Made by a program: the position numbers and the translations under genes. A stretch of 64,000 nt of DNA from an uncultured Bacilli bacterium (GTDB lineage Bacteria > Bacillota_I > Bacilli_A > RFN20 > DUOF01): NCBI GenBank assembly GCA_934183255.1, contig CAKPSD010000003.1, positions 18,789 through 82,788 of the forward strand. Direction: 5' to 3'. Positions 8,301-54,566 of the stretch are shown here, one piece after another. Numbering within the stretch: position 1 is the first letter of the stretch; each line of letters starts with the position of its first letter. A model generated the notes under the pieces. That model saw nothing but the letters and a program-made list of their open reading frames with translations, did not search any database and was not told the DNA's origin.

Positions 8301-8316
8301 TTTCAAAACTCCCATC

Positions 8317-8544: not shown

Positions 8545-8555
8545 ATTTAGCCTCC

Positions 8556-8705: not shown

Positions 8706-8752
8706 ATATTAATCACCTATTACGCCTATAAACTTTAACATAAAATTTTTGT

Positions 8753-9331: not shown

Positions 9332-9343
9332 TTACCTCACTCC

Positions 9344-15067: not shown

Positions 15068-15161
15068 ATTGACATTATTAAGGAAATGTATATTTCAGAT
15101 ATATTTACAAATAAAATAAAAATATAATAAAATGGTTCTAAAGAAAGGAAAGATAAAATAT

Positions 15162-24298: not shown

Positions 24299-24370
24299 AT
24301 AAATAATAACATATTTATGTCTTTATTTCTTACTAACAAACCAATTATTTAACTTTTTATTTAATAACCA

Positions 24371-24402
24371 CAATAAGTCCCTAATTAAAGGGACTTATTT
24401 GT
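24371..24402 (-). terminator. Hairpin after the giant ORF (possible terminator)
   Basis: A perfect 10-bp stem AATAAGTCCC/GGGACTTATT (24372-24381 / 24390-24399) with an 8-nt loop lies 10 nt after the TAG stop. The trailing U-tract is weak. Confidence 0.45.
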
Positions 24403-24409
24403 AGTATTA

Positions 24410-27400
24410 CTAAGCTGCTCTTACTTTCTTTCTAAGTTTTAGAATTAAGAATCCACCACCTACTGCAGCAATTCCTCCTAATACATAGAAGATCCATGTG
24501 AAGTTACCTCCACCTTTATTCTTATTATTATCTGGATTTACTGGATTATCTGGATTTACTGGATTATCATTAAATCCATTATTCACTATTCCAATAAGAA
24601 TATAACTCTCATCATCAAAGTTAATTAAGTAGTCTGTTATACCATATAATTCCTTATTAATAACACTCTCAACATTAGAATCTACATTAATTTGGAATGA
24701 TATAGCATTTAATTTAAATGTTTTACCATTAACAGCACCACTAGATAAAATTGAGAAGATAGTATGTTCTTTATCAGGAATAACACCCATAAAGTAAATC
24801 GCATCATTATCACTAATAGAATCTATATCATCAAATTCAAGATATGCTCTACTACTACTCAATTTTTGTAATATTACTCTATCAAATTTAATAGGAGATC
24901 CAGAAGTAACAGTAGTATCAGCTACATTATCTCTATCAATAACATTAAATGTATATTTATCTTCATCTGTTTCTAATTCTTTAGTATCTGGAGCAAGTAT
25001 AACAAATTCATAAACATACCTATTACCAGCTACATCTGTAATAACAAATCTATAATGTCCAAATCCTTCAACAGGTACTCCAGTATCACTATAACATTGC
25101 ATATCTACAAATAGTTTGTTATTCATATAACCTTGTACTCTCATACTTCCACTATCATCAATAAATGATATAGTGAATGAATCAACATCTTTATAAATAT
25201 CATCAATAGGTTTATCAAGAATATTATTATCCTTTATGATATTAACCATTGGAGCCATCTTATCAAATATAAATGTAGCAGTAGTAACTTCTCCAGATAC
25301 ATTTCCTACAGTATCAACTAATCTAAAGTATAGTTTTACTCTAGTTAATGGATCATTTAAGTTAGCTGTATATGCTAAGTTATAAGTATCACCTTCACAT
25401 ACACTCCAATTAGATTCATCCCTGTTATTATTTATAACAACTAAACATTCATAATGATATCTATTGGTGTTATCACTACCACCAGTTATTTTATAATATA
25501 ACTCATCACTATTTGTATAAATACTATCACTAGTTATATCCAAAGTATTTCTTCCATCATAACTTAATTCAATCTTGCTACCAGCTTCATTAGGATTTGT
25601 ATTATCTATTATACTAAAGTATATTTCTAGATATTGTATATTTCCACTTGCATCTGTTACTTTCAAATTAGCTTTAAATCTAGCATATTCTTGATTGCTT
25701 ACAGAATCAGTAGCTGAAATAGAATCAATTATGTATGCTAAGTTTGTATCATAATTATCTCTAACAAAAATATTAGTACGTATCCAACCAGCATCATTAG
25801 ATAAATATTTCATCATCTTTTCATGTTCATTCGATCCTGAATATATTGACCAGTTAACCTCATTATAATTGAATGATTTTTCAATACTACTAGTAGTGAT
25901 ATCATCATTATTCATAGTAAATGTAGGAGAAGTAGTATCTTCAACAAAGATAACATATTCTATTTCACTACTATTCTTACTATCATCATAACAAATCATA
26001 ATGATCTTATAATAACCTGTTCTAGTAAGTTTAATCTTATAATTTTCTTTGTCTTCACTAGATAACTCTATTTCACTAAAGTTAACACCATCATTTGAAT
26101 ACATTAAACTCTTTATAGTTACTTCATGATATTTATCATCTTCATGATCTTTTGAAGTTGGTTTATTTAATTTCAAATCACAAATGTCTTCTTCATTAAA
26201 GCAAACTGTAGGTCTATTTTCGTTGTCTCTAATATTAAGAACAAAGTATATAAATGCTGTATCTCTACTTATAATATATTTAACACCATTAATTTCAAAC
26301 ATGTTATTAGCAGTAATACTTGCAACTTTATTTCCATTACTATCTACAATCTTTTTATCAGTTATATCACTAACATCAATAGTATATTTTACATCACCTA
26401 TAGTAAAGTATTTTCCTTCACTAATAGCTATGATATTATCATCTATTATATCAGGAGAATGCTTATCACCAATATTTAATGTGATACCTATATTAGCATC
26501 ATCAGCTAATGCTTTATTACCAGTTGAATCGATTACTTCATAAATAATTCTATATGAACCAGGCAACATAAATGTAAAGCTATTTCCTTCATTTACAATA
26601 TATAGTCTATCGTTATAGTAGTACTTATTATTTTCAAATGTTATTTCTTCATATTCATTATTTATCTTAAATTTAATAATTCTTCTAACACCAATACATT
26701 CACCATCAGCAGTATTACAAGTAACAATATTGCCTTCACTATCAAATCCATAATTATCACTAACTGTAATTCCTGCATCAGTATATGTGTAGCCATTAAC
26801 ATTAGTTATATCATAATAATAAGCTTTTCCATATGCATAAGTTCCATTTACTCTAAACTCTGGTTTTGCTTCATCAACTACTTTTATAGTTAATGTAACA
26901 GTATTTGATTTATTTCCAGCAACATCGCTATAAGAAACATCAAAATTATAATCACCAATCTTATTAAATATAAAGTCAGTTTCACTAAATACCCATTCAC
27001 TATCATTTGCAGATACTTTATGATTGTTGAATGAAATTAATAATCTAGATTTTTCATCTATTGTTAAGTTACTATAAAATTTTCCATCTACTTGATTAAT
27101 AAAGTATCCTGATATTATTTCTTTTATTTTAGAACTTGAAAGAGATATGTTATTAATACTCTTATTTACAACAACTAATAATGTACAATTTGAAGTATTC
27201 TTAGAATCACATTCAATTTTCTTACTACTATAATAACTATTTGTTTTAACTTTTATTTCAGGACTTATAAAATCAAGTTTGATTTCTGATTCATTTGAAA
27301 CACCAGCTGAGTTATATGATGTTATAACTAATGAGCTAAGTTTATAATCAGAAGCTTTTAAAGCATCAGCATATATAGAACTTACTAAGTTACTTAATAA

Positions 27401-30400
27401 TCTCTTACCACTAAAGCTAGAATCTAATCTATATGATTTAGAACTATTACCATATTTAAATGTAAATTCTATTCTACTTATATTTGTTTCTAACATTTCA
27501 ATATATAAGCCATCAAATTTAGATTTACTAAAGTAATCATTTTCACTATAAACAACTTCATCACAACTAGTAGAAGTACAATTCTCTAATATTCTAAATC
27601 CACTATTAACTTGATCTATTACAACTTTTATAGAAGACTCATTTCCTGCTTTATCTTTAATCACAACGTTGTATTCACCATCAACATTAATAGTCATACA
27701 ATAACCTGTTCTTCCACCAGAACAACTAGCTACAGTTCTTTTTTGATTATTAACATATACATTTTCAGTATCAAATCCACTAACATATCCTCCATTAGCA
27801 TCATCGTTAAACACAAATCTTACACTCTTAGAGAAGTAATATCTTCCTTCTTCATCAATCATATATTCATATGTTCCATCAATACCTAAAGCACTTATAG
27901 TAGGTCTTTCATTATCAATATAAATATTAGATATTGTAGATATGTTTTCATTTCCATACATATCTATACCTTTAACAATAAGTCTATATGTTCCACTAAT
28001 TAAAGTATCTGTACTATAAATTACCATTGTATATTCTTTTTGACCTGATTTATTAATATCTTCTCTAACAATACAATTTGCAGTACATTTAGCAACTTCA
28101 TCAAAGTTATTTAAAGTAATACCTGAAGTACCACCACTTATAAGTTGTAAAATATATTTTACAGATCTTAAATTTTTATTACCAGTTACTTTAAATTCAA
28201 TATTATCTCTACTTAATCCATATAGATTATTAGAAACACTTAATTCAATTTCTGGTCTATTAGTATCAAATTCACCTAAAGCAAATACTTCTTCGCCTAA
28301 TACGTTATTTCCTTCGGATACATAATCATCAGTAACTTTAATTCTTAAGTCAGCCTTAATTATACCATCTGTAAACAAACTCAAGTATGTGCTTCCTCTC
28401 ATAGAATAAGTAATAACATTTCCTATTCTATTTTGAGTAAATCTATCTGTAATATCTGTTACATTATCCCATTCATTAGTATCAGAATTCTTAGTTACTG
28501 TATATATTGTAGTTTTTGGAGTTCCTACTACACCATTCATAGTAACAGTGAATGAAACTATACCATTATTATCAACATAATTAGGAGTATATTTCATATT
28601 ACCAATAGTAATACTTCTTCCCTCTACATACATAATCTTATATGAAATCTTGTGTTTATCATTCATATTCATATTGCCAACTTTATCTTTGATTCTTGTA
28701 TAGAAGTTAAAGTAACTATCTTCATCTAGCATTTCATTAGTAATTTCTTTGCTACAATAAGAAGCTGTTTCCATACTATCATCACTGATTTCGCAATACA
28801 TAACTTCATTATTATTTTCATCTAAGTAATATACAACAATAATATTATCATCTTTAACCTTGTTAGTGTAACTTAAGTGAACTCTTCCAAGTTCATCTTT
28901 AACTAATATAAAGTCTATAAGATCTCTAGAATTATTAGGCGCTACATTATCTACACTTATAGCAGTATTTGTAGTTACCTTATTACCTAATTTATCTGTA
29001 TATTCAACAACTAAATCATAAGCACCATCAAGAGCAACATCTGAACATACTACATCATAATAACTATCGCTACTTATAGAAGTTATTGTATTTGAACATC
29101 TCTTATTATTACCATCTTTCAAATAATAATTTAATGATTTAAACATATCTCCATATTCACTAAACTTAAAGGCAATCTTTAAACTAGTTCCATATGTATC
29201 ACTACCATTAATACCTTCATCTAATTTTTTATCATTGTATTTAAACATAGAATCAATTTTAACTTTACTTGAAGATACATTTTCAACAGTAAATGTCAAA
29301 CTATCATCACTTACTTTTCCAGATCCATCTTTAGCATATATAGTAATAACTTTTATTGCTTTATCATTTAAAGTTCTTAATGCTATACTTTGTAAGTTTC
29401 TACTATCAATACCTGTTAAATCAATAACATCACATTCATCATCATAACAGACATATAAGTATTTTTGTAAATTATCTTCATCAACAATAGCATTTTCTCC
29501 TAAATTAATAATTAGTTTGCCATTATACATGTATTGAGCATTATTAATTATAACTTGTTTATTTACTAAATTATAATTGCCATCTAATATATTACCTTCT
29601 ATAGTAAATTTACTTACATCCATTACTGGCTTATATGCATCAATATTCTTAGCTAAAATACTCTTATATGAAGCAGTTCCCCATTTATCTTCAATTTTAA
29701 ATACATAATATCCATTTTTAGAAACATTAGAAATATATTCATTTGATCCCTCAGATACTGTAAGCTTACTAGCTGAGTCCCATGCTAATTTAGAATAATC
29801 AGAAGCATTAACAAATGTTTCACTATAAACATAGAATATCTCTCTTCTACCAAGAGTAGTCTTTATATTAGAAATAGCACTATTTAATTTAATATTTAAA
29901 GGTTGATTAGTACTATAACTTATTGTCTCATCAGTTGTAACTTCATAATCGAATAAAGATGTACTATAAGAGCCTGTTATATTAATAATAGCTTTAATAG
30001 TATTACCAGCTTTATCCATAGCAATTATATTAATATAGTTATGAATAAGATTAATACTACTTCCACTTCTAAATGATTTACATCCACCATTATTTACTTC
30101 AACATTTTCACTTGACCATACGCATAACTTGCTAAGACCTGAATTGCCTTTATCCTTTGAATTAATAACAATAGAAGATACATCTGATGGAATAACATCA
30201 CTTACAACTCCATTTTCACTAGAATAATATAATTGTCTAGGTTTATTAGTATAATAACCATTGCCTGTTAAAGAATATTCTTCTTTAACAACACATTCTA
30301 AGCTATTTTTAGAACTACACTCTAATTTATAATTTTCTAAATTCTTACCATTAAAGTTATTTAATGAAACTATGATACTTGGTTTCTCATTATCATATGT

Positions 30401-48400: not shown

Positions 48401-51400
48401 ACTAGAATCATTACTATTTATAAGCATGTTTACAATTAATTTATTAATTATTTCAACTTTCATTTCATTAATAAATTCTTCAGGAATAGCAACGTTTTTA
48501 TCATTATATGCAACTGTTAATGTATAATTTATAGTTGTATTATAAAATTCATTAACTTTTTGTAATCCACTTATAGAAATATTAACTTTTTCACTATCAA
48601 ATAAATATGCATAAATAGTCTTAGTATATTCATATCCACTTCTAAATACTATTTTATGAGAATAAGTTTTAATATTATCTTTAGAAATTTCATTAGAGCA
48701 GCTTTCTTCATTCTTATTAAATGTACATTCTAACACATTTGTTGTTTCATCATATAAATCATGATTTACTTTTATTACATAAGAGCCATTAGAAGCATCC
48801 TTATCTATATAATAATAAGTAGTACCATTACTATTCTTAATCTGTGTTTTTTCTGCAGTAGAAGTAACATCCACTCCAACTTTACTAACATCACTTACTA
48901 TAACATTAAATTTTTCTTGTTTTGTGATTTGTCTTCCATATTTATCATAATATCCTAAATTTAAATCAACAGCATTATCTCCAATTTTTAATCCTTTTAC
49001 TTTAATTTGAGTATCACTATACTTTTCACAAGACACACTCAAAAGATCACAAACTACTTTACTATTATTTTGATAAGTATTTTCATTAAGATAATAAGCA
49101 TCAAATGATTTATTTGCTACTTTTAAAATAGCATTTCCATCATTTTCAGTTAACTTATATCCATAATTTTGATTTTCAAAAATATCTTCATAACTATTTG
49201 GTACTTCTATAATTCCTACTTTTCCATATTCATCACTAGGCATATTAGTAGCAATATTATTATTTATAAAGTTCTGATTTATTCTAATTTCTAGTTGATT
49301 ATTTGCATCCTTATTCAAATCATTTATTTTAATTTTAAGATAATCTGTACAAGTAGCAAATCCATCTTTTTTGTTTTTATCAAGAATTGAATCATTATCT
49401 TCATCTCGAGTACAACTGAAACTTACATTTGTAGTGTATCTTCCTACTACTTCATAGTTTGTTCCATTTGCATAATTTAATTTTTCTAATAAGTTATATG
49501 CATTTTTATTTCCAACATAAGTAGAATATACAACTTTAATAACCAAAATTAGATTATCTTCACTATAATAGTAAACATCACCATCATGAATTGAAAATTC
49601 TATATTATTTAAATATGTATGAAGAGTTGTGTTTTCAGTAGTTTCATTGCTACTTATTATTGATGTATTTACATTAGCAAATGTCATCGAATTTTTAACT
49701 TCTACTTCTGTTTCTTCTTTTACTTTAATACTACTTGTTTCAACAAAAGTTTTAGTAGTATCATCATATTTTCCATTAACTGTATTTAAATTAACACTAC
49801 CATAGTTAGCAAGCATATTTGCAGTATCTACAAGATATCTATTATTTATATCTTCAATAATTGCATCCGTACCTATATGACAATATGTAACATCACAACT
49901 AGCAGAATCATCAGAGAAGTATCCTAATGTCACAACATTAAATCTTCCAACATCATCGTTTGAAACTTTAATAGTATATTTAAGTACATTTACTAGAACA
50001 CTTATATTTTCTGATGGTTGGAATGTTACAGTAGTTTCTTCTGGAGTTGATATTTTTTTATCTTCCCCATTACCAAATTTATAAATAATTGTAGGGTATT
50101 TTGTATTTGCGCTTTCCTTATCATAGTGAATTCCATCAGAGAAAGAAACATAAAGTACAATTGACTCTCCTGTATAGAAAATTTTTCTATCAGGTAATAA
50201 TTGATTCTCATCATACCATATTGAAACTATACTAGTATTTTTATTAATAATATATAGAAGTTTATTTTCTATAGTTTCTTCTGGTTTTACAACTAGCTTA
50301 AAGTATTTCACTGAATCTTGAACTTCTTCAAGATAAATTTTATCAGAATAAGATGCTGCAGAAGTAGAAACAACATCAGATATATTAGGCTTATTACTAG
50401 CCAAATCACAAAATCCTGATTCAACCAAATAAATAAAAGCTTGTCCTTCATCTACAGAACATCCAGAAATAAAGAAAGTAACATTCTTTCCTTTACTATC
50501 TGATAATTCTTTTAAAGTTATTGTACAATTAGTAGTTGCACCTGGATTAGGTTTATCATCATCTAATTTAAAATAATTTGAAACTTTATCTTCATTGAAA
50601 GTCATATGCTCTTCATCATAGTAAACAACTATTTTTGCAGTATAACTTGCGTTTATTTTCAATCCATTAGGTATTGCTACAATTTCAGTAATTTTTAATG
50701 GTGTATTATCAACTACTATTTCAGTTCGATTATATTCAAACCCTCTATTTTGGTTATTAGCTTCATCTACTATTGTATTAGAATTTATATGTAATCTAAA
50801 ATCTCCATTTCCTGTACAATTGCTAATTATAACTGTTTGTGTTTTTGTTGATTTGTTTAAATCTCCTATCGTTATAGAAGAACAATTTAAACTTCCATTA
50901 AGAACAACAATTTCCACATTAGAGCTATCAGTTAATGCTGAATATAAATTGTCTTCTGTATATTTTAATGTGTATGTAATTGTATGTGTGCTATTTACAT
51001 AAGTATTGTTTAATTCGTTTGTTGTTATTATTGATTGTATACTACCTGTAGGCAACTTATTATCAACTACGATTTTAGCATCTATTTCCTGTTCATCTAT
51101 CTTATATTTATCAAATGCAATTTCAGTATTTTTATTATTAGCCTTATCTATTATTACATCAGCGTTTACTTGTAATGCTACAGTTCCATCTCCATTACAG
51201 TCACTAACTTGTACTGTTTGTGTTAAACCATTTAAAGCTCCTACCACTACAGTAGAGCAAGAGACAGTTCCACTTTTATTAAGTGTTATTTGATTTTTAT
51301 TTGTTAATGCTGAATATAAATTTTCCTCAGTATATTCTAATGTGTATGTAATTGTATGTGTACTATTTACATGTGTATTGTTTAATGGGTTCGTTGTTGA

Positions 51401-52738
51401 GGGTAATGATTTTAATTTTATTGCTGGTGATGTATTATCAACATATATTACATCTGTTGTTTTTATAGCATTTTTATTATTAGCCTTATCTATTATTACA
51501 TCAGCGTTTATTTGTAACTTTAAAGTTCCATTTTCACTACAACCACTAACTCGTACTATTTGTTTCGAACTATTTAAACTGCCTATTTCTATAGTAGAAC
51601 AAGAAACTCCTCCAGTTGTGTTAAGCTTTATTTGATTTAACTTATAATCAGTTGTTTTTCCTGAATATTCAGTTAACCATGAATATAAATTTTTTTCTGC
51701 ATAATTCAATGTATATGTAATTGTGTGTGAACTATTTACATGTGTATTGTTTAATGAGTTCGTTGTTTCTAATGATGAAACTGTAATAGAAGGTGCTATT
51801 TGATCTGCTACAAACACTAAATTTGTAGTTGTTTTATTATTAACTTCATCATATACAAATACTAATATTTTATATGTTCCATTTTTTAGTTTATTTTGAC
51901 CATTTTCATCCATAAGTGTTAAGCCACTAATTTTATATGTAGGTCCTGCATCCTCAATAGTAATTTTTTTATTTTTGTATATTTTATTATCAGTTACTGT
52001 GCCTTCGCCAGAACAATCTGCAGTTGTAGTATCAACAATACAATATTCAATTCTATTTAAAGCAGAATCAGTACTTGAATTGTATGCAACATTAATTTCA
52101 AAACCTTTTTCACTTTTTGGACCATAAAATCCATTTGTATCATTTCCGACTTTTTTTGATTCATCTGCAATAATTTTATTAATAGTAGGAACTTTAGTAT
52201 CTATTTTTAAATTAGGAGTCGTAAATCCTTCTAAGTTTCCTGCACTATCAACAACAGCAATTACAAGTTTAAAAGTTTGTCCACTTATATTATCTGGAAC
52301 AACAAAAGCAGATTCAAACTCAACACTGGTGTTAGTTTTCATAAAGCCATTTTCACCAACTGGCCATGTATTGTTTTCACCTTTTATAACTACAAACCAT
52401 GTATTTGTATTAAATTTTTGTGTAGGTATATCTAATCTGTTAGTAGTAGGGAAAGAAAGTTCCTCATAGCTATCAATATTATAACTACACCCATCATCAG
52501 CTGTCCAACAAAAATATATAAAATCAATGTTAGTTTTGTTGAATTTTACATTGTATGCCATTCTAGTAGTATAATCATCTAATCTTCCATACCAAATATC
52601 CTCAGCATTTGCGCTAGTATCAAAAGTAATAACAGCATTTACTCTTTCACTAATACCAAAAAAACACATAAAAAAGGCAAATACCATTACTAAGTATTTT
52701 AAAATTTTTATAAGTTTACTATTAGATGATTTGTTCAT
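24410..52738 (-). CDS. Giant (9,442 aa, ~1 MDa) secreted, C-terminally membrane-anchored multi-Ig-like repeat protein (putative surface fibre/adhesin)
   Basis: A single uninterrupted 28,329-nt frame in AT-rich DNA. RBS GGGGAGAG lies 7 nt upstream of the ATG. The signal peptide is MNKSSNSKLIKILKYLVMVFAFFMCFFGISERVNA. Dozens of ~90-130-aa modules start with (V/I)D(N/T)xxP and carry a late DxAGN-type motif. The C-terminus is a TM helix plus LRKKVRAA. The function is inferred, not demonstrated. Confidence 0.93.
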   Translation of the reverse strand: MNKSSNSKLIKILKYLVMVFAFFMCFFGISERVNAVITFDTSANAEDIWYGRLDDYTTRMAYNVKFNKTNIDFIYFCWTADDGCSYNIDSYEELSFPTTNRLDIPTQKFNTNTWFVVIKGENNTWPVGENGFMKTNTSVEFESAFVVPDNISGQTFKLVIAVVDSAGNLEGFTTPNLKIDTKVPTINKIIADESKKVGNDTNGFYGPKSEKGFEINVAYNSSTDSALNRIEYCIVDTTTADCSGEGTVTDNKIYKNKKITIEDAGPTYKISGLTLMDENGQNKLKNGTYKILVFVYDEVNNKTTTNLVFVADQIAPSITVSSLETTNSLNNTHVNSSHTITYTLNYAEKNLYSWLTEYSGKTTDYKLNQIKLNTTGGVSCSTIEIGSLNSSKQIVRVSGCSENGTLKLQINADVIIDKANNKNAIKTTDVIYVDNTSPAIKLKSLPSTTNPLNNTHVNSTHTITYTLEYTEENLYSALTNKNQITLNKSGTVSCSTVVVGALNGLTQTVQVSDCNGDGTVALQVNADVIIDKANNKNTEIAFDKYKIDEQEIDAKIVVDNKLPTGSIQSIITTNELNNTYVNSTHTITYTLKYTEDNLYSALTDSSNVEIVVLNGSLNCSSITIGDLNKSTKTQTVIISNCTGNGDFRLHINSNTIVDEANNQNRGFEYNRTEIVVDNTPLKITEIVAIPNGLKINASYTAKIVVYYDEEHMTFNEDKVSNYFKLDDDKPNPGATTNCTITLKELSDSKGKNVTFFISGCSVDEGQAFIYLVESGFCDLASNKPNISDVVSTSAASYSDKIYLEEVQDSVKYFKLVVKPEETIENKLLYIINKNTSIVSIWYDENQLLPDRKIFYTGESIVLYVSFSDGIHYDKESANTKYPTIIYKFGNGEDKKISTPEETTVTFQPSENISVLVNVLKYTIKVSNDDVGRFNVVTLGYFSDDSASCDVTYCHIGTDAIIEDINNRYLVDTANMLANYGSVNLNTVNGKYDDTTKTFVETSSIKVKEETEVEVKNSMTFANVNTSIISSNETTENTTLHTYLNNIEFSIHDGDVYYYSEDNLILVIKVVYSTYVGNKNAYNLLEKLNYANGTNYEVVGRYTTNVSFSCTRDEDNDSILDKNKKDGFATCTDYLKIKINDLNKDANNQLEIRINQNFINNNIATNMPSDEYGKVGIIEVPNSYEDIFENQNYGYKLTENDGNAILKVANKSFDAYYLNENTYQNNSKVVCDLLSVSCEKYSDTQIKVKGLKIGDNAVDLNLGYYDKYGRQITKQEKFNVIVSDVSKVGVDVTSTAEKTQIKNSNGTTYYYIDKDASNGSYVIKVNHDLYDETTNVLECTFNKNEESCSNEISKDNIKTYSHKIVFRSGYEYTKTIYAYLFDSEKVNISISGLQKVNEFYNTTINYTLTVAYNDKNVAIPEEFINEMKVEIINKLIVNMLINSNDSSGFVIDSSYYEITKTTAGFDVKFVDSNMINRMKVLLESNINYETITSSIANYSYNASITNDNVYFPVVKKNNGEIVYLPYSCSYDENKRSCEVTGFKSESNSLYLLVDNKKYGLLESKEGYDGVILNLVDSVNLKYSGNFVYSTSNDVINNPPVFKLNNTRTQYVGVVGQENLEFRYNPNFTNPKINSIQFADTCDSEFNDSYSFLMEKEACIKVVYESFSTSDPLFKNEISIGGAKLQVVNKQNVSDSNNKIYHLRVKYINDVVTEKHDEVFKLSQTENADFITINGLGLDENTNIEVNLTFVPTRLSYNHEIVGTIKNEIYNSINSNKLTFTKALNDTYTFEVCAYNEEGKEVGCYTLEEGNYVGAIQNGVDSKLSFKVKVLKGNSITINERICSVDHVNDCLNLNEGYLVLEKVVEFDNIKPIASVSNSYNAIYGKNVASDEITIEFSENVYLIAGKKVTSALEAYSNSNNKCTIDTDSIKFTSGTNVLKFKYSCSKTGQVTIVVKGDIFEDYAGNVLDTESILTEMFIDADSLMAEVINVSKKFVKGCNSSTCPDGSNSVKITIKFNKKFKFVNGVSANSAFTANVTANRTVEVDAEDPTKVYVTITIAENKESVETALFINISNITALDGSAYEGNNPLSTDVAILYGNYTLTYSEMSPESGCTQNSSDGKYYCTKDAKIKVKYKTNRELKDWVNNVNYVSLTKNNLQLKFVSSNYDKNTGIIEVIYSLENITENMILQGYGSMNIGGVTDMAGNIANYAVGSLNADMGGYYALVTAPVFNEYIPTNVSTNIGSSFTELRNKLESSTYWNARSANMPTSVVLYSNDYTNVLSYLYNNEYFSKIANEITITMKATDLAGNYTTKDLKISILVNGSFKVNFKDGLGKIYDGKKVTSISASDIANIDLPSSYQTLLMRINGCSKGSYLECRKDSLTTFNLEQEIINALSGKIIANTEKDAINVGKYDSSYFSINDATISNYKTYNVNSVYAISFNDNFAYTITPRTINDIGLLTYNAVYNKTGIYSNVSMTINKDNSSDILDGEEVTIKGNVQFNDANVGNKEFTFRGITVTNNNNYTISDSELVGSGNGNITPFMITINSIVNITKYMDGNANVIQVESKNNVINGYTFDFSWGNGKYVDSEGKEIATIGKHSVKLYNLVITNVLNDLTNNFEISNQVNDGYILLENSGTIVEDSSEFNFDVVVSSNSINRNGIYYIKENVDVSVSNITGNSSNHTFCFYKEEGNCLQTESTYTTTFENNGVYTIYVSVANPSGVSVTKQVTFNYNSSKLTVVSNLVAGNNVTLYKVGDSVTINVKLSAYIDETTVCNGNSLRLFNSELEGYEITNCTLRNDTISYTYKVPSNAILEYNVYNKIDLTNILNEIKDLWGHSYESETKVFTLDNENSITINTSELSLKLLVSTKSCNVVDKICYTNNGNVTFTFMFSDAAKDYSLSEFAVSITRNMSINGKSLSYNSENKTFTATYDGLVSFIDGVLNVQNGNVRFTHANGKFYEINKEISLSYETENSSSYTNIYVDPRTFDVSFTNVPTSTIKGSATVSYTIKNTYLGAGLTGDVTSYFEITSKEEDVSSLVTIISNNGKLSINYIGSDSKKITFRLRNEMLKNYATTECSSSNEFSITFDNSSLSILQTNVISKDNECIFVNDTLSCVRTTNTNDYHIANGDNKYFNNAQNIYVEFVFNRNLSIIDVTSINTLYYSIGNKFENTTAVTIKDNVITFTISLTGELSGALVIEGLKLNVKDNLNVEYVNEIYGRATEDDTTNASIKANTNYYIDTTALDLDNITVDIPEMGSFLDSSKDKLVITYNGSYNKALYYGTNVPYKSGNKMSAIAYLSGASTTAVTVNACSVSYTINGNDITTVITCDLSNGTNLENDYEFKVNSITDSFAREHTIEKSINIKIDNVKPRLSYINTSENFNSARELVFDLSIIDKNITYTNEEFGVYLDGVKVNATFNKDGSFTVDGNEYVVKNGKVYKLATTNIGEYANGSLVISGNQVSGTMDIDSSNSGIVYYNKNVYKMIAGKVYAYGEDAPCYELKYKGINLNNLYFYINTQGGIEQNVIISNIALSENVLTLTIKLNNLIAGTYNLKAASGLVVDDNNNVTDKVDNLKTIVINNNVPTISDGMITDSLSTSYTFANNTQKYKYFADYFELYISKGSYGFTPTLTSELCNFILVNGEPISSEACESSIDSNNSKVTFKIKAVNEGTRLLNIGIYEIQIKEGFLISSTTVPSSKKTIGVKYVVYDDSINLSSVAWNFVSASDVIVKDNVYYIKNNENSIKGKIIIPEGRHIFKIDDKVIAGPSNVYEYETSIVVNRTKTIKVEFAGGGIASIELATETLKEGVTYTSDENNKLYYDYSLTNEILAKSVFKIKSNKLFASKYEKVFMINSTACGVKDNKVYCDGSENGTTISSNSFEFNGNTYEINENSVISEGIIVSPIYTVDNASLTLTVTNVIEAGKKGKQYFTIKAGLLKDAFGVNSSEYQYTITILEPSVIEIKSKDNKDENGKPYTQTGNAQFVISSNINSISSSWTIENNILGFSKCENARDVCVIGKVQYELIKNGDNTYSFEINGVTYTINETRTSINGETQIKDGKFTLGDDYVKVLFEIKDVVDSYDASTNTNTYKTYIFGTKVIFESGFVKTAISNTNEAIYTNVLSEFEYIVDGFGPKIISVDVAARECNEVSGVSYCKGGSQILVTVTFDEIISKYSNLRIVTNVANVSGTINDANQRSIVFTITVPTNVNVDNFTITNISGTVTDSTNNTTILSISNSYNNSNIVIDNTKPTAILSIANVKYSAKNKDVVTLDIIANENYNTEISKDMIKLCNYDGSICLNADQNVTLESGKGTTNITLLDSLENGNYTITVNKEAIVDKANNTLNADLSKTITISNDGNPLQINIISSGYAKDGSSIKHYYFGGANKNGELKFTVNNNTLEELTSCGTHIKFYRVNDEEEVNIFNCSMDSSKNITISLKDDAIVSENTEYYFVINGDVSINEYGNASLNYSSLNKHVLIVNTSVFTYTRKTNQTIVEKGGKLYIKESSIDLTYTFNHDVQKYSYQNNYVTNINKVGVKEITLNKLIGTYTLVVYNYFGDTINININVERDNIAPSVKLQPGVSTEYGVTSNTSITLTFDVTDTLLKDSYELTNTTDTTYSYSNGVLTVVRSITPNVSGSYVVHIPSFADELGNESAKFDVTIVVRSEDYSIIPSGDAVTVLDNGEYVYYTKTGQVILKLESSTKSFETINLGDLAEEYTSQIENVSGKNIIILTRKTKLNEGSQSISLIGIKVKFVNDNKEYELTSERVFNYIVDKTVPSISGVEYSTTGQVKEGKKVAIIFTLSERVDANVSLSYKYGNNDDIEELTATPYLDGEVYKVKFTITIGKQNGVLMYKLGIITDLAGNQKGTDSEWTTTTIEVDNIVPVISSVTSDKTMVKEGEEFVLTVNIEENVTFDVSRINAKGANVIGYSIDNQTFTSTFDKTISSNVLYVKVKATNLSADAFTVVFNDGFITDAASNQNTSAAESEEIKVLRVVNTIVSTTCNEINNIAYCNKGTKIKVEIVFNYDVSRDASNKLDMLKIAEYVTAELNGLTYFSLGENVYRYDEVNNKLYIVTSYNNEDLTQIVEEEVSNFKDNKFTDTTNTTYYVLLGDESELLVYEVININIDTSLGSNRNHVYVYTVKDGDNFEVGGFDYNGLYENVTLKEITFDYDVINVVTDRVAGPEISISDAKPTYGINNIVRFKVSIVEGSILSNYRDLISVSGGEIVSISNVNNNEFDIEVNTRNVNGTLTLTVGGIVEDEAHNTNENVTYDIVVDATRPEFTVSITSNSEYSYNYDGNELTIAIETTKASSFDLTKSNILDLGLENITYSNDVTIFNSIENLFLTKLIIKGTLNNNMSNVFDIQIKEGFLIDGAYNTNDKTFTSDQFVITRVKEDKVVASSCTSDNEYCKVIEYAITFYNPISIKDENISNYYIKTNIEGVVLRFASGNGTNTHKYSYTASENLDYVIEYLSFNTGMYSGVISDGYIESLDNSIKIDTKKPELKMIESTANGCNDVNGISYCSKLSNSQTITLQLTFNEVISSYNNIIINTNMGNVSPTSSSSISNKLVFVFNIASESISDIEKLVINKITGIVVDKAGNSLDLNMNATVEEPIHENDQIKYYVVAPVISITSKSLINETEELIFKISSTKQISYMDITKISIAADITCSLSEDGFYGDCKDVSAQTIYLKANIGSSDAITLAIYKEFVKDLSGISNTVEISKTVNVLRINSIEIDASECKIYGEARYCKEGTTIKVTVGFNNDYSYNVDNSLIISTDKFNEDGSRVKLTVKIDSTNSAVRKHVYVYKVQSNDNFAIAGFEFGENTYTEFVNKDIEYKDSSIKCSNIKVGNLNIITSKETYGINKDITFRIELVDSNIINGVTLVENYKNNIKAYRTIGGGNVSADASISEGYDASGALAYINVVVNSQEAEKVRLEVLGIFESISGITNTSAEKEVVVSSEKAEITNINVYSSNEVTNKAKEFDTITVEITFSKNVNDNLPTLTAVFNSNIVFNNGYKKQSVDNVVVYSYDVNSSDSGKLKKILLTSVNGFKDIELENEIDVSTSKFTYDFEIDNSRPEITNFVIKNGENEVKANTYVKEGTVLDFYITFNKALKAAPKLSFNFSESANVVVEYINGTTYKYSYTITNEDKGLLENISLGEVQDVLGNTNTISYAYAYNVVAITGGYNIEVIKQNIKIINDKELSAGKVVYVLNGINSYAYDDIFNKIKNSFSLVCHTLDERDCSSSGDINVNIVVSKGENNTIQIILKGSVSENETGIMLDLAVKYNGDIEDLAGNKVNIDNELFTDVRYDNLVRNIVSTELIGCKSINGKEFITSGASCNSLTVTFNGELKNGNKSYVSGNSDIQVTINSQTFTLTTEDYITYTIKDFAVNATKSSVISLVVGSNDGIVGINGKITKNITLNEKLYFDVEKPNVNNFIANVYTRNAVTYVGKTLSLSFDVTDGSAEYSSGIDYSSVIVSVNRDNEITELTCVRNDDSFECNNFVIEEYMLNNNKTININYQVKDNASNITEYTLVYTYDNAAPSISSVDYSGLITNGNEYITRNNVNDKIVKITFNDDLSGIKDSIISYKWCDENNDCTTYTGEAKLTNNVAVITLPAGDGRYKLHINPVSDNVNNVSAELVIDTTIEVDNTPISGYYIDSITCVEGTNCVINGNYYNGKGQINIVVKTNGDIITKANFTSDMLVFSDITISDDRKSVSVTAGANKLAKANALYPTINVSLTDLALNVSDLVNINEVDSKLIIDNYIEITNLTVKVDNDHKNNPTKITEIILNIFENNDKESIVSTIYYINDVIYNYEDILTYEFKENSTIKVVISDRVGNTTEKTYVVEVDNVAPDFNITIKDNGKALKATDKKYYSFNENIELVVNKISSDIKEICVSLEGSNTCISKNQNDNYTLDANMKYSITVRDYSSNESSNSVELVYVGFDIVSGDDYKLDDYRQTHTAKVEFNLEDLSSVVNATYKFNSNSYTTVDNSSLINITNNNLNGIKNLEVKVCMKNDNSYCLTKNKELYFDNLATTSNINVTANENWTNEKSVTIDVNIANNQDSSGIVMAYVKVGKTIVKEGTKYLSEGKINGFNIEITEYGTYEIWVRDAANNEASVKSVTIRIDNTETGGYDAKVIFRNEGWQKNNNVNVTYVCNNTFCNKGGNTVSDVKYLFVKKGTIDVTEDNFDQIYSSNDILFNGGVGTSTNFNVNINNSSYTGTYVLYVKMVTKSGNGIFSKIFVQLDNTASLISFANASEEYRKYEETDIKNLVTIVDGEDQSGVNEEKTIYKLVDTNNKEYNLKEELEGEYRIKVTAYDNVGNVVTEVSESYYKIDNKAPKMERNNGKNTYNSEPASYTVSDLNNGETKVGYCIASNTFEDFESACSNVTMNLVENGTFTLNEKPSLITSDKAAFVKVVDKFGNTRYYKFIDITYDNEKPSIIVSLNNFNGKNLENYKLECSSKNSLECVVKEEYSLTGNGYYTNKPRQLYYSSENGVVSDVIPSDVSSIVINSKDKGNSGLSKLCVWSSENVEVNNGGCKSFRSGSSINLIHNYINIIAMDKAGNTIKAIINITGSYSTSLFDYEVTTDETISYSTNQPLNIKLNSAISNIKTTLGRREIFYVYSETFVNASDYSKLAWDSASKLTVSEGSNEYISNVSKNGYYVFKIEDKWGTASYKSILAKNIDAYKPVMDVSKFTIEGNILDGNYNLVNKQVIINNAQYMYNGKLIINLGENAIVDEDNLQKYLYVCYDDECDVIDLTGIDSRNLQSIALRTLNDKAIKVITIYAKDGSGKVSDDSLTFTVENVSSSKVKIDSMFKYNDKKLDEGINGSDTYGTSLKIAFKFSEYGDMFKSLNYYLKDGNNKRCSNTITSISSDSYYDVVCSDVALDGAYDLVVEYTDKLGNKVTTNTAISVDNVAPNNSRDLIDFILVKDELGRVHLSYTNKVKDDNIIVVYYLDENNNEVMYCEISDDSMETASYCSKEITNEMLDEDSYFNFYTRIKDKVGNMNMNDKHKISYKIMYVEGRSITIGNMKYTPNYVDNNGIVSFTVTMNGVVGTPKTTIYTVTKNSDTNEWDNVTDITDRFTQNRIGNVITYSMRGSTYLSLFTDGIIKADLRIKVTDDYVSEGNNVLGEEVFALGEFDTNRPEIELSVSNNLYGLSRDNIEFKVTGNKNLRSVKYILQLISGGTSGITLNNFDEVAKCTANCIVREDINKSGQKEYTMVIYSTDTLISGTYRLIVKGIDMYGNENISTISNIYIDNERPTISALGIDGTYEYMIDEEGRYYFSKSVRFVFNDDANGGYVSGFDTENVYVNNQKRTVASCSGGRTGYCMTINVDGEYNVVIKDKAGNESSIKVVIDQVNSGFRILENCTSTSCDEVVYSENDYFSKSKFDGLYIEMLETNISRIEFTFKYGNSSKSYRLDSSFSGKRLLSNLVSSIYADALKASDYKLSSLVITSYNSAGVSNESEIKLDFISPEIKVKTNSYYSSKKIECDSKNTSNCTLLVVVNKSINNISLSSSKIKEIISGYFINQVDGKFYSNLTIDEKSRLLISFNNHKVSANDSEWVFSETDFIFNKIGDYNFDVSYSDVAGNKSNTVTLTIKVVDEAKPEFRVNGTYAYGKAYYYDITNVNGYTYTDAGITVSDNYGFDSEGNIVTCNTADGECIGVRRIIKFKINNEYEEITFENNKYYYNDRLYIVNEGNSFTFMLPGSYRIIYEVIDSTGNKALADDANIGITLNIGDKHSPDIIDDNIIAISEGKYFTIGDVKYTIDVSDITDKKIVDSNGNKVASITANNMFEINGVKYIISRDTAFIYFVLNIRDNENRPTVCFNEEDICDLKLNKPTSKDHEDDKYHEVTIKSLMYSNDGVNFSEIELSSEDKENYKIKLTRTGYYKIIMICYDDSKNSSEIEYVIFVEDTTSPTFTMNNDDITTSSIEKSFNYNEVNWSIYSGSNEHEKMMKYLSNDAGWIRTNIFVRDNYDTNLAYIIDSISATDSVSNQEYARFKANLKVTDASGNIQYLEIYFSIIDNTNPNEAGSKIELSYDGRNTLDITSDSIYTNSDELYYKITGGSDNTNRYHYECLVVINNNRDESNWSVCEGDTYNLAYTANLNDPLTRVKLYFRLVDTVGNVSGEVTTATFIFDKMAPMVNIIKDNNILDKPIDDIYKDVDSFTISFIDDSGSMRVQGYMNNKLFVDMQCYSDTGVPVEGFGHYRFVITDVAGNRYVYEFVILAPDTKELETDEDKYTFNVIDRDNVADTTVTSGSPIKFDRVILQKLSSSRAYLEFDDIDSISDNDAIYFMGVIPDKEHTIFSILSSGAVNGKTFKLNAISFQINVDSNVESVINKELYGITDYLINFDDESYILIGIVNNGFNDNPVNPDNPVNPDNNKNKGGGNFTWIFYVLGGIAAVGGGFLILKLRKKVRAA
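24413..24502 (-). other. C-terminal TM anchor plus basic tail of the giant protein
   Basis: FTWIFYVLGGIAAVGGGFLIL followed by KLRKKVRAA-stop. No LPXTG or similar motif lies upstream. Confidence 0.8.
24531..24566 (-). repeat. Exact 2 x 18-nt tandem duplication encoding (PDNPVN)2 just outside the TM anchor
   Basis: Plus-strand tctggatttactggatta occurs at 24531-24548 and again at 24549-24566. Confidence 0.9.
50714..51808 (-). repeat. Three tandem in-frame copies (366, 375 and 354 nt) of one Ig-like module near the N-terminus of the giant protein
   Basis: Copy boundaries are the codons for ADQIAPS (51808), VDNTSPA (51442), VDNKLPT (51067) and VDNTPLK (50713). All copies share TN(S/P/E)LNNT(H/Y)VNS(S/T)HTITYTL-Y-E-NLYS and a C-x19-22-C pair. 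Copies 1 and 2 share an exact run of ~40 nt (plus strand tttttattattagccttatctattattacatcagcgttta, near 51128-51167 and 51474-51513). Confidence 0.9.
52634..52738 (-). other. Sec-type signal peptide of the giant protein
   Basis: Basic n-region (KSSNSKLIKILK), a hydrophobic core (YLVMVFAFFMCFFGI), and RVNA followed by V as an AxA-like cleavage site. There is no lipobox. Confidence 0.7.
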
Positions 52739-52914
52739 ACATACACTCTCCCCATTAAACTACATCTTAATAATAAAACAAAAAAAGTAAATGAACAATA
52801 AAACGAAGATATTTTGTCGCCTTTTGTTGAAAAACAAGCACTAAATTTATATATAATATAAATTAAAGTAAAAAAAACAAAATAATTTAAGTTTTTATTT
52901 GATATTTTATTGCA

Positions 52915-52944
52915 TTAAAAAACCCATTATTTCTAATGGGCTTT
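52915..52944 (-). terminator. Rho-independent terminator after the 158-aa gene, separating it from the giant gene
   Basis: On the minus strand, CCCATTA-gaaa-TAATGGG (52923-52940) is followed by UUUUUU (plus-strand A-run 52917-52922). Confidence 0.7.
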
Positions 52945-52946
52945 TA

Positions 52947-53423: not shown

Positions 53424-53436
53424 ATTAAACTCCTAA

Positions 53437-54486: not shown

Positions 54487-54566
54487 TTTATCTACACTCC
54501 TCGTTTGTATATTATCATAAATTAAAGAAATACTCAATTGTTTTTTTAATTCTAAGCTTATTTTTA

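What the first reader, a model, noticed from the sequence alone, without database searches (positions are those of the whole stretch)
24410..52738. Uninterrupted 28.3-kb ORF encoding a 9,442-aa exported protein
In DNA this AT-rich, stop codons are frequent in random frames; the other five frames of this interval hold only short ORFs of <=119 aa in the supplied track. A 9,442-codon open frame therefore cannot be chance. It has an RBS, a Sec-type signal peptide, a C-terminal TM anchor and a consistent internal module grammar. At ~1 MDa (9,442 aa x ~110 Da) it would rank among the largest bacterial proteins. I saw no catalytic motif, no RTX GGxGxD nonapeptides and no LPXTG. It looks like a very long, membrane-tethered fibre built from beta-sandwich modules. 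What such a fibre binds, and how it is folded and exported, is unknown.
Basis: partly seen in the sequence, partly recalled or inferred. Interest (0 to 1): 0.85.

Follow-up and report, generated by a model that had tools for sequence, protein, structure and literature searches.

The report
Giant membrane-anchored Ig-module surface fibre
A real, intact 28-kb gene in an uncultured human-gut bacterium encodes a 1.05-MDa surface protein made of dozens of very divergent immunoglobulin-like modules tethered by one membrane helix; it is a giant adhesin-type fibre of an undescribed family, and it lies in a genomic slot whose content differs between closely related lineages.

Summary
Window 24410-52738 (minus strand) is one 9,442-codon ORF with an RBS, a Sec signal peptide and a single C-terminal TM helix. 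At least six metagenome assemblies call the same gene at 9,441-9,442 aa, and there are no DNA-level repeats that could collapse. The host is an uncultured gut Bacilli MAG (Hadza samples).

The protein passes no Pfam, NCBIfam or PDB-sequence threshold. An exhaustive HMMER search found a small family (75 of 1.84 billion representatives), with members up to 5,920 aa that are colinear with it over about 3,400 aa. AlphaFold of the last 544 aa (pLDDT 85.7) gives tandem beta-sandwich modules, a disordered linker and a TM helix. The best fold matches are stalks of giant adhesins (SiiE, MpIBP, GhpA).

The module grammar is real but not repeat-like: 55 close Cys pairs, D-x-x-G-N strands and D-x-x-x-P linkers. 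The TM/"KLRKRVRAA" tail is the best-conserved part and matches no known sorting signal.

A near-conspecific relative carries a 781-aa gene in the same slot and two more distant relatives carry nothing. A relic of the 781-aa gene's 3' end survives downstream of the giant. Verdict: a real new variant of giant fibrillar surface proteins; ligand unknown; moderate interest.

The parts
24410..52738 (-). Giant ORF, 9,442 aa plus stop; 1.05 MDa, pI 4.7
   Evidence: same gene called in independent assemblies
52746..52753 (-). Ribosome-binding site GGGGAGAG, 7 nt before the ATG
   Evidence: upstream sequence
52739..52946 (-). 208-bp intergenic region upstream of the giant. It starts with the terminator hairpin of the 158-aa gene (52923-52940) and should hold the giant's own promoter. 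It is part of the variable cassette.
52634..52738 (-). Sec-type signal peptide, aa 1-35: K-rich n-region, h-region YLVMVFAFFMCFFGI, c-region SERVNA. It carries the family motif (I/L)(L/F)KY(L/I/V).
51749..52633 (-). N-terminal (membrane-distal) region, aa 36-330. It is relatively Trp-rich (4 of the 26 Trp within aa 49-125) and has no detectable homologue except faint similarity to the 781-aa protein of L109. It is the candidate ligand-binding tip but was not modelled.
50603..51754 (-). Three to four tandem ~123-aa modules (aa ~329-712), 40-57% identical, each with a C-x19-21-C pair
34229..40621 (-). Central region (aa ~4040-6170) with weakly recurring module types (3-7 copies each, ~25-40% identical)
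24413..34642 (-). C-terminal third (aa 6033-9442), colinear with family members P0001 (32% id), P0003, P0011 and P0002
26705..26965 (-). Module aa 8592-8678, related to PF16403-type bacterial surface Ig-like domains (profile E = 5e-18 against a small local set of ~165 sequences; below Pfam's own threshold)
24413..26044 (-). aa 8899-9442, modelled at pLDDT 85.7: about five beta modules, one of them the family-wide membrane-proximal domain, then linker and TM helix
24503..24565 (-). Disordered Pro/Asn/Asp-rich linker (NPVNPDNPVNPDNNKNKGGGN) before the TM; encoded by a 9/18-bp tandem repeat
24413..24502 (-). Family-signature TM helix FTWIFYVLGGIAAVGGGFLILKL plus basic tail RKKVRAA. It is the best-conserved segment of the family (56% mean pairwise identity).
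24372..24399 (-). Terminator-like hairpin just after the stop codon
24323..24364 (-). Relic of the last 14 codons (LNKKLNNWFVSKK*) of the 781-aa-type gene that occupies this slot in relatives
24365..52946 (-). Variable cassette. Homology to the near-conspecific L109 stops at 52947 and resumes at 24364.
54567..62687 (-). Paralogue (2,706 aa): signal peptide, 16 Cys pairs, C-terminal ~600 aa 25% identical to the giant, same TM/RRRVRAA tail
52947..54537 (-). Two soluble proteins of unknown function (366/349 aa and 158 aa) between the paralogues. They are syntenic in all relatives examined, with or without the giant.

Best explanation
The gene encodes a type-I membrane-anchored giant surface fibre of an uncultured anaerobic gut Bacilli. 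Shown: an N-terminal Sec signal peptide; one C-terminal TM helix with a basic cytoplasmic tail; tandem Ig-like beta-sandwich modules at the C-terminus; and sequence hallmarks of such modules along the whole length. Inferred: the protein is exported N-terminus first through Sec, the signal peptide is cut after VNA, and the chain stays tethered by the C-terminal helix. Roughly 65-95 modules would then form a stalk a few hundred nanometres long that holds the unique N-terminal region (aa 36-330) far from the cell. Most modules carry a C-x3-28-C pair on what look like neighbouring strands, most simply a staple disulfide that stiffens the module. The most likely job is attachment to host, mucus, food-particle or other-cell surfaces. 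Being exposed, the protein would be under diversifying pressure, which fits its position in a replaceable cassette slot next to a fast-evolving paralogue. A TM anchor rather than LPXTG would suit the peptidoglycan-poor, Mollicutes-related gut Bacilli to which its relatives belong.
For: The ORF is intact and reproducible. The topology signals are clear. The AlphaFold model of aa 8899-9442 (pLDDT 85.7) is all-beta modules, a linker and a helix. Foldseek top hits are SiiE 2yn5, MpIBP 4p99/5irb, GhpA 9flw and related entries, the Lactobacillus large adhesion protein 6xi3, SbsC, cadherins and FN3 arrays. Sub-threshold Big_13, PKD, Big_12 and Big_3_2 traces appear and no other domain type is seen. 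A PF16403-type profile hits aa 8592-8678 at 5e-18. A family-tuned module HMM finds 16 modules from aa 155 to 9183 and none in block-shuffled controls. Motif excesses are strong, and composition is homogeneous and beta-biased. The Cys-pair pattern is shared by all long homologues. In the good model C9098 and C9114 sit on adjacent strands E196-204 and E214-216; a staple disulfide of this kind (C-x7-C) was demonstrated in the Mobiluncus giant adhesin (PMC10619420). The slot is variable and holds a relic of the displaced gene. The n2706 orthologue is 67% identical where flanking proteins are 96-99%. One family member comes from an Acholeplasmatales MAG, and uncultured gut Bacilli orders include peptidoglycan-deficient species (PMC10868615).
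Against: No adhesive or ligand-binding domain was identified, and the N-terminal 6,000 aa have almost no homologues. The tip could not be modelled. The second model (aa 7043-8242) was low-confidence, so most of the stalk is inferred from motifs. There are no expression data. Disulfides are unproven, and Firmicutes generally avoid Cys in exported proteins (PMC2823432). The order-level taxonomy and wall status of the host were not determined. The very high conservation of the TM and tail suggests more than passive anchoring.
Confidence: 0.62

Rival explanations
1. The protein is a protective surface coat or spacer rather than an adhesin. Together with the 2,706-aa paralogue it would form a dense brush, a functional substitute for a wall or S-layer, that keeps phages, immune effectors or other cells away from a fragile membrane. 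The variable cassette would then reflect phage or immune evasion.
For: No adhesive domain was found. Two co-located paralogues of different lengths share one anchor. Family members range from ~800 to 9,442 aa. Fold hits include S-layer proteins SbsC and Sap, and there is a marginal profile hit to the Deinococcus HPI layer protein. The locus is hypervariable.
Against: A near-conspecific relative (L109) lacks the giant entirely and has an unanchored 781-aa protein instead, so the giant is dispensable for envelope integrity. No self-assembly or lattice domain is evident. One very long protein is an expensive way to build a coat.
Confidence: 0.2
2. The conserved C-terminal segment (FTW..LGGxGAxGGGFLIMKLRKRVRAA) is a new sorting signal. 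A dedicated membrane enzyme or partner, analogous to the sortase, exosortase or rhombosortase systems, would recognise it and cleave, transfer or oligomerise the protein.
For: The TM and tail are the most conserved part of the family: 56% identity against 31% for the adjacent domain and 14% for the linker. The terminal RAA is near-invariant and the helix holds a glycine-zipper-like run. The layout of disordered linker, TM and basic tail mirrors known C-terminal sorting domains, and there is a marginal match to the TM/tail part of the LPXTG_anchor model (15.4 against 15.9 bits).
Against: No curated CTERM or sortase signal model matches. No sortase-, exosortase- or rhomboid-like gene lies in the 64-kb window. 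There is no conserved cleavage-type motif upstream of the helix. A conserved helix could simply mediate oligomerisation.
Confidence: 0.12
3. The ORF is an assembly artefact, a pseudogene or a non-expressed relic.
For: All evidence is metagenomic short-read assembly. No expression data exist. Many contigs from other samples break near this locus.
Against: A 9,442-codon open frame in 26% GC DNA cannot persist without selection, since the other frames carry 374-2,114 stops. The gene is identical across several assemblies and has no DNA repeats. It has an RBS, a signal peptide, an anchor and a terminator in place. Homologues in other organisms are colinear over ~3,400 aa.
Confidence: 0.03

Closest known systems
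Giant fibrillar adhesins with Ig-like stalks in Gram-positive bacteria (e.g. the Mobiluncus mulieris 7,651-aa adhesin, S. aureus Ebh, the Lactobacillus large adhesion protein 6xi3)
   Same: They are exported through Sec with an N-terminal signal peptide. They have dozens of tandem Ig-like modules and are usually the largest protein of the proteome. The Mobiluncus protein has a C-x7-C staple disulfide linking adjacent strands of a module (PMC10619420). 6xi3 is among the fold hits.
   Different: Here there is no LPXTG or cell-wall anchor and no thioester motif or recognisable adhesive head. The modules have diverged beyond Pfam thresholds and are mostly not recognisable as repeats of each other. 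Anchoring is by a family-specific TM helix and tail.
T1SS/RTX giant adhesins of Gram-negative bacteria (SiiE, MpIBP, LapA)
   Same: They give the best fold matches for the modelled region (2yn5, 4p99, 5irb). They too have a long extender of BIg modules that projects a distal binding region.
   Different: Those proteins lack a Sec signal, carry C-terminal RTX repeats and a T1SS signal, are retained at the outer membrane by their N-terminus, and have near-identical repeats. None of these features is present here, and the polarity is reversed.
PF16403 (Bact_surface_Ig-like, formerly DUF5011) and PF19077 (Big_13) repeat proteins
   Same: Several modules are detectably related to these domains. They share the Y.I.V.D.AGN strand and the D.T.P linker signature.
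   Different: No module reaches the curated Pfam threshold (best 26.2 against 27 bits). The typical PF16403 proteins recovered here have 7-28 clear repeats and other anchors such as CHU_C/T9SS.
Giant genes of Omnitrophota and other phyla (10.1101/2023.11.21.568195)
   Same: Both are very large, poorly annotated bacterial ORFs recovered from metagenomes and proposed to act at cell surfaces.
   Different: According to that preprint, the full-length Omnitrophota giants have numerous TM regions and most have divergent SecA DEAD helicase domains, and they reach 30,000-85,000 aa. The protein here has two hydrophobic segments only and no such domain.

Membership tests
Fibrillar adhesin (functional class: stalk repeats + anchor + adhesive domain) | Tandem stalk domains of Ig-like or beta-sandwich fold | tested here: met
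   AlphaFold pLDDT 85.7 for aa 8899-9442 with tandem beta modules; Foldseek hits to adhesin stalks; module HMM and motifs along the whole length
Fibrillar adhesin (functional class) | Surface anchoring signal | tested here: met
   Single C-terminal TM helix plus basic tail. It is not one of the classical anchors.
Fibrillar adhesin (functional class) | Recognisable adhesive or ligand-binding domain | tested here: not met
   No lectin, CBM, vWA, thioester or other binding domain in Pfam, NCBIfam or PDB-sequence searches. The N-terminal tip is an orphan and was not modelled.
LPXTG/sortase-anchored Gram-positive surface proteins | LPXTG-type motif before the C-terminal hydrophobic segment and basic tail | tested here: not met
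   No LP.TG, [LIV]P.[TAS]G or NP.TG anywhere. TIGR01167 matches only its TM/tail positions 9-33, below cut-off.
RTX / T1SS giant adhesins (LapA, SiiE, MpIBP type) | C-terminal RTX GGxGxD nonapeptides and T1SS signal; no Sec signal peptide | tested here: not met
   Zero GG.G.D motifs; a clear N-terminal Sec signal and a C-terminal TM helix
Pfam PF16403 Bact_surface_Ig-like / PF19077 Big_13 | Score at or above the curated gathering threshold | tested here: not met
   No hit at E<=0.01 on halves. Best on 945-aa pieces: Big_13 at 26.2 bits against a cut-off of 27. Homology is supported only through intermediates.
TIE proteins (thioester / isopeptide / ester cross-linked adhesins) | Thioester Cys-Gln motif in an N-terminal domain | tested here: not met
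   No C[GA]Q or TQxA(I/V/L)W motif
TIE proteins (thioester / isopeptide / ester cross-linked adhesins) | Intramolecular isopeptide or ester bonds in stalk domains | not testable with these tools
   Needs model coordinates or mass spectrometry; the tools returned only secondary structure and confidence.
Known C-terminal sorting signals (PEP-CTERM, GlyGly-CTERM, PGF-CTERM and related NCBIfam CTERM models) | Match to a curated NCBIfam sorting-domain model | tested here: not met
   Only PFE_CTERM at 13.1 against 24 bits and LPXTG_anchor at 15.4 against 15.9 bits for the 57-aa tail; nothing for a homologue's tail
Omnitrophota-type giant proteins | Numerous TM regions and divergent SecA DEAD helicase domains (per 10.1101/2023.11.21.568195) | tested here: not met
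   Only two hydrophobic segments; no Pfam domain of any kind
The new family defined here (giant, n2706, P0001-P0009 and others) | Membrane-proximal domain plus the signature TM/tail ...LGGxGAxGGGFLIMKLR(K/R)(K/R)VRAA; paired-Cys Ig modules | tested here: met
   Alignments A1-A3; colinearity; Cys pairs in all long members

The most novel reading that the evidence does not exclude
The giant belongs to an undescribed family specific to uncultured, probably wall-poor gut Bacilli. In it, ancient non-recombining arrays of disulfide-stapled Ig modules are tethered by a new, highly conserved C-terminal signal ('KLRKRVRAA-CTERM'), which a dedicated membrane partner recognises. The genes behave as swappable cassettes at a fixed chromosomal slot and set strain-specific host or phage interactions. 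Paired cysteines in an exported protein of an anaerobic Firmicute would also imply an unrecognised extracytoplasmic oxidative-folding capacity in this lineage.
Probability: 0.2. Interest if true: 0.65.

Novelty: new variant of a known kind. Interest (0 to 1): 0.5.

Why it matters
Uncultured reduced-genome Bacilli (the RF39, RFN20 and ML615J-28 orders and Acholeplasmatales-like lineages) are common gut inhabitants, and how they interact with the host is essentially unknown. A gene of this size is a heavy investment for an organism of a lineage with reported small genomes (PMC10868615), so the product is likely central to its lifestyle. It gives a concrete handle: a surface antigen, adhesin or spacer with a unique conserved anchor that could serve as a family marker. 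It also gives a natural present/replaced/absent polymorphism that can be correlated with host, diet or phage data. More generally, it shows that giant surface proteins can be completely invisible to Pfam and NCBIfam. A non-repetitive Ig array may also be a useful test case for how very long modular proteins evolve without concerted evolution.

Tried and rejected
1. Word-indexed homology searches failed. The N-terminal 1,200 aa, the C-terminal 1,200 aa and a C-terminal profile gave 0, 0 and 4 hits. The 8,000-candidate list was evidently saturated by chance words from this N/S/T/I-rich sequence, because the exhaustive search did find relatives.

2. A genome-contig scan with the C-terminal 4,000 aa found no relative. 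The metagenome-contig scan gave a single 1.1-kb locus. Alignments A1 and A2 were too divergent for pattern design.

3. Pfam and NCBIfam on the halves, and PDB sequence searches, gave nothing. Family profiles against PDB gave only marginal hits: SraP at 0.0025, an IgA Fc receptor and the HPI layer protein.

4. The second AlphaFold job (aa 7043-8242, five sequences) gave pLDDT 51.9. Its fold hits (mastigoneme, alpha-2-macroglobulin, FN3) are treated as weak support only.

5. The N-terminal tip against the N-termini of P0003, n2706 and P0070 gave no significant similarity (z 0.6-3.9), so no alignment could be built to model it.

6. A mobile-element origin found no support: tblastn against phages and plasmids gave no match, and there is no tRNA or integrase in the window.

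7. The neighbours n158, n366 and n1163 had no informative hit in Pfam, NCBIfam, PHROGs, PADLOC or PDB.

8. A ~30-bp imperfect direct repeat flanks the giant, but p is only about 0.02 in AT-rich DNA, so it is not relied upon.

9. Strict positional conservation of Cys against homologues is 37-50% of aligned Cys, only modestly above overall identity (31-36%). The pairing pattern is conserved; exact positions are not.
Full report

Yes. The ORF listing gives one ORF at 24410..52738 on the minus strand, 9,442 aa with an ATG start. My own translation confirms a single terminal stop. The other five frames of the interval carry 374-2,114 stops, and their longest open stretch is 131 codons. GC is 25.8%, so an open frame of this length cannot be chance.

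The sequence GGGGAGAG lies 7 nt upstream of the ATG. A terminator-like hairpin follows the upstream 158-aa gene (52923-52940) and another follows the giant's stop (24399-24372). The gene therefore looks monocistronic.

That is answered in two ways. First, Tandem Repeats Finder sees only five tiny arrays inside the gene. Second, exact-protein look-ups of the two flanking genes returned contigs from several metagenome assemblies in which the same gene is called at 9,442 aa (ERZ27286922, ERZ4559868, ERZ28614047, ERZ27287395) or 9,441 aa (ERZ4559945/ERZ28613922). These contigs are base-identical to the window over the 5' 9.8 kb, and one 84.8-kb contig is also identical over the 3' 7.7 kb plus flank. 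Some are re-assemblies of the same samples, so the number of truly independent samples is smaller, roughly three to four.

**2. Host and context**

The neighbours are core chromosomal genes: rpoB, L10/L1, NusG, a HydABC-type [FeFe] hydrogenase, pta, an M29 peptidase, topA and TsaD. The hydrogenase points to an anaerobe.

rpoB is 100% identical to a contig of an 'uncultured Bacilli bacterium' MAG from Hadza gut metagenomes, and 93% and 83% identical to two other gut Bacilli MAGs. Cultured Bacilli reach only about 60%. I could not assign the order. One family member (P0011 = MBQ3253595.1) comes from an Acholeplasmatales MAG. The uncultured gut Bacilli orders are reported to have small genomes and to include peptidoglycan-deficient species (PMC10868615).

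**3. Anatomy**

The protein is 1.051 MDa, pI 4.7, net charge -381, and rich in N, S, I, T and V. There are only two hydrophobic segments. One is aa 7-37, a signal peptide with a K-rich n-region, h-region YLVMVFAFFMCFFGI and c-region SERVNA. The other is aa 9413-9435 (FTWIFYVLGGIAAVGGGFLILKL), followed by RKKVRAA. This gives a type-I topology with a huge ectodomain.

There is no LPXTG-like, RTX, HExxH, CxxC, Walker A or thioester motif.

No family reaches threshold in Pfam or NCBIfam on the halves, nor in PDB sequences. On 945-aa pieces only sub-threshold Ig-like traces appear: Big_13 at 26.2 bits against a cut-off of 27, plus PKD, Big_12 and Big_3_2.

BLAST self-comparison finds clear repeats only at aa ~240-712 (about 123-aa period, 40-57% identity) and weak ones at ~4040-6170. 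The protein is thus not a conventional repeat array.

The 'grammar' is a set of short signatures:

- 55 close Cys pairs (C-x3-28-C) with a median spacing of 141 aa, against 28 expected and a maximum of 38 in 2,000 shuffles.
- The strand motif D-x-x-G-N, 24 times against 3.5 +/- 2 expected, usually preceded by an alternating hydrophobic strand.
- The linker motif (I/V/F/Y/L/M)-D-(N/T/K...)-x-x-P, 21 times against 1.4 expected.

Composition is homogeneous and beta-biased along the whole length, with no alpha-rich stretch (a crude measure).

**4. Relatives**

The word-indexed searches failed because they were saturated by chance words. The exhaustive HMMER search with the C-terminal 1,200 aa found 75 hits among 1.84 billion representatives. 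These fall into two classes.

The first is a true family. It includes P0001 (a 3,334-aa fragment), P0003 (5,920 aa, full length with a signal peptide), P0002, P0011 and many short C-terminal fragments. P0001 aligns colinearly to giant aa 6033-9442 at 32% identity. P0003 aligns to 6516-9442 and to 2089-2611. The module order is therefore old and stable, and individual modules are orthologous between species. That is the opposite of the concerted evolution seen in most giant adhesins.

The second class consists of proteins with 5-28 PF16403 (Bact_surface_Ig-like) repeats that hit giant aa ~8592-8687. A profile built from about 500 such repeats hits that module at E = 5e-18 and eight others more weakly (E-values are relative to a small local set). 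A family-tuned version finds 16 modules between aa 155 and 9183, and none in block-shuffled controls.

The upstream 2,706-aa gene (54567-62687) is a paralogue. Its C-terminal ~600 aa are 25% identical to the giant, it has the same tail, and it carries 16 Cys pairs. All long homologues show the paired-Cys pattern far above random.

The family's most conserved segment is the TM plus tail...FTW(I/V)FY(V/I)LGGxGA(V/I)GGGFLI(M/L)KLR(K/R)(K/R)VRAA. Its mean pairwise identity is 56%, against 31% for the adjacent domain and 14% for the linker. It matches no curated sorting-signal model.

The four available N-termini (giant, n2706, P0003 and the 781-aa protein described below) share (I/L)(F/L)KY(L/I/V)(V/L)F in the signal peptide.

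**5. Structure**

AlphaFold2 was run on aa 8899-9442 with a 20-sequence family alignment. It gave mean pLDDT 85.7. The model shows about five beta modules (one with a short helical insertion, the last a mixed membrane-proximal domain), a disordered linker (model residues 494-517) and a C-terminal helix (517-543).

Foldseek against the PDB returns the stalks of giant adhesins: SiiE 2yn5, MpIBP 4p99/5irb, the Aureispira grappling-hook protein GhpA and the Lactobacillus large adhesion protein 6xi3. It also returns S-layer SbsC/Sap, cadherins and FN3 arrays. TM-scores are low, as expected for flexible multi-domain chains.

C9098 and C9114 lie on adjacent strands (E196-204 and E214-216). This is compatible with the staple disulfide (C-x7-C linking adjacent strands) demonstrated in the Mobiluncus mulieris 7,651-aa adhesin (PMC10619420).

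The second job (aa 7043-8242, five sequences) was poor, with pLDDT 51.9. Its better parts are all-beta and its fold hits are again beta-sandwich arrays. I count this only as weak support.

**6. The locus is a variable cassette slot**

Look-ups with >=90%-identical variants of the downstream M29 peptidase gave syntenic loci from relatives.

- **L109.** Flanking DNA is 94.7% identical; topA is 97.8% and M29 99.2% identical at protein level. A 781-aa gene occupies the place of the giant. It has the same kind of signal peptide, Cys pairs and D..GN / D..P motifs, but no TM anchor. It shows only faint similarity to giant aa 176-441 and 7320-7399.
- **L107/L108.** At about 88-90% DNA identity, these carry the 3' end of the same 781-type gene.
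- **L102 (GCA_045128835.1) and L106.** At about 74-80% DNA identity, the slot is empty. In L102, 88 bp separate the 158-aa gene from topA.

Homology between L109 and the window stops exactly at the stop codon of the 158-aa gene (52947). It resumes at 24364, just after the giant's terminator. At 24323-24364 the window still encodes LNKKLNNWFVSKK*, a relic of the 781-type gene's C-terminus (LNKKQNKWIVSKK* in L109). The giant cassette therefore displaced a 781-type gene in an ancestor of this lineage.

The paralogue also evolves much faster than its surroundings. It is 67% identical in L109 and 38% in L102, where housekeeping neighbours are 96-99% and 75-90% identical. In another sample an IS110-like transposase follows the 158-aa gene. 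This pattern is typical of exposed proteins that interact with hosts or phages.

**7. Mechanism**

*Shown:* the export and anchor signals; beta-sandwich modules at the C-terminus; module signatures throughout; family membership; and the variable slot.

*Inferred:* Sec export with cleavage after VNA, then retention by the C-terminal helix with the basic tail inside. Some 65-95 modules would form the stalk; 66 comes from the Cys-pair spacing and about 95 from the ~98 aa per module in the good model. By scaling from SiiE-type stalks (from my own knowledge, not tested) the stalk would be a few hundred nanometres long. Staple disulfides would stiffen the modules. The orphan, relatively Trp-rich N-terminal region (aa 36-330) would be the distal functional end.

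I favour adhesion (confidence about 0.6 for the whole statement). The rivals are a protective brush or spacer (0.2), a true cleaved or recognised sorting signal (0.12; compatible with either function) and an artefact or pseudogene (0.03).

**8. Comparison and novelty**

The protein works like a fibrillar adhesin, and it meets the stalk and anchor criteria of that functional class. It fails the tested defining features of the following:

- LPXTG proteins;
- RTX/T1SS adhesins;
- curated PF16403/Big_13 membership;
- TIE proteins (no thioester motif);
- known CTERM signals;
- Omnitrophota-type giants.

Giant proteins as such are not new: proteins of more than 30,000 aa, up to 85,804 aa, are reported. 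I therefore rate it a new variant of a known kind. It is an undescribed family with non-repetitive Ig modules, paired cysteines in an exported Firmicute protein (unusual given the cysteine exclusion reported for Firmicutes, PMC2823432), a unique conserved TM/tail, and cassette-like presence, replacement or absence. Interest is 0.5: solid and useful for gut-microbiome surface biology, but a specialist would not be very surprised by a giant Ig-like surface protein.

Noticed in passing
window 24323-24364 (-): Downstream of the giant's terminator, a relic of the last 14 codons (LNKKLNNWFVSKK*) of the 781-aa gene that occupies this slot in relatives L109 and L107. It shows the giant cassette displaced that gene.
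   Followed up: yes
window 54567-62687 (-): A 2,706-aa paralogue with the same signal-peptide motif, Cys pairs and TM/RRRVRAA tail. Its positional orthologues are 2,702 aa (67% id), 3,035 aa (38% id) and 2,998 aa in relatives, so it diverges far faster than the flanking genes.
   Followed up: partly
window 17490-20981 (-); L094 2172-5649; L102 11178-15161: A 1,163-aa protein with four N-terminal hydrophobic segments and no database match. It also evolves fast (49% id in L102 against 80-90% for its neighbours), varies in length (1,159-1,327 aa), and is split into 241 + 927 aa in one assembly.
   Followed up: partly
L090 6292-7323: In sample SAMN11098199 an IS110-like (DEDD) transposase gene follows the 158-aa gene where the giant starts in the window; the contig ends inside it.
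   Followed up: partly
L109 8612-9973; L107 2516-3877; L110 2313-3674: Close relatives carry an extra 453-aa AAA_14/DUF4143 ATPase gene between topA and the M29 peptidase gene. It is absent from the window, so this is a second indel in the neighbourhood.
   Followed up: no
whole window (22 ORFs of >=150 aa): Stop codons are TAA 17 times and TAG 5 times, with no TGA. All 26 Trp of the giant are necessarily TGG. TGA seems avoided, but 22 genes in 27% GC DNA are too few to conclude anything about the genetic code.
   Followed up: partly
window 52634-52738 and 62580-62687 (-); P0003; L109 3951-4080: The signal peptides of four family-related proteins share (I/L)(F/L)KY(L/I/V)(V/L)F at the boundary of the n- and h-regions. 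This may be a lineage-specific signal-peptide motif analogous to YSIRK or KxYKxGKxW.
   Followed up: partly
window 52876-52904 and 24335-24366: A ~30-bp imperfect direct repeat lies about 42 nt after the stop codon on each side of the giant gene (p about 0.02 by shuffling). The downstream copy overlaps the relic of the 781-type gene.
   Followed up: partly
window 52947-54537 (-): Two soluble proteins (366/349 aa and 158 aa) have no hit in any library. They always lie between the n2706-type gene and the variable slot in every relative examined, so they may be functionally linked to the surface proteins.
   Followed up: partly
window 10986-15067 (+), 15132-16364 (+), 6259-6374 (-): A HydABC-type (NuoE/NuoF/HydA) [FeFe] hydrogenase operon, an RsgI-like anti-sigma factor gene (replaced by a Peptidase_C39-like gene in L102), and an L10 leader as the only Rfam hit.
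   Followed up: no
window 50001-52000: GC skew (-0.07) and AT skew (-0.17) differ from the rest of the giant gene (about -0.3 and -0.05). The region corresponds to the ~123-aa repeats near the N-terminus.
   Followed up: no
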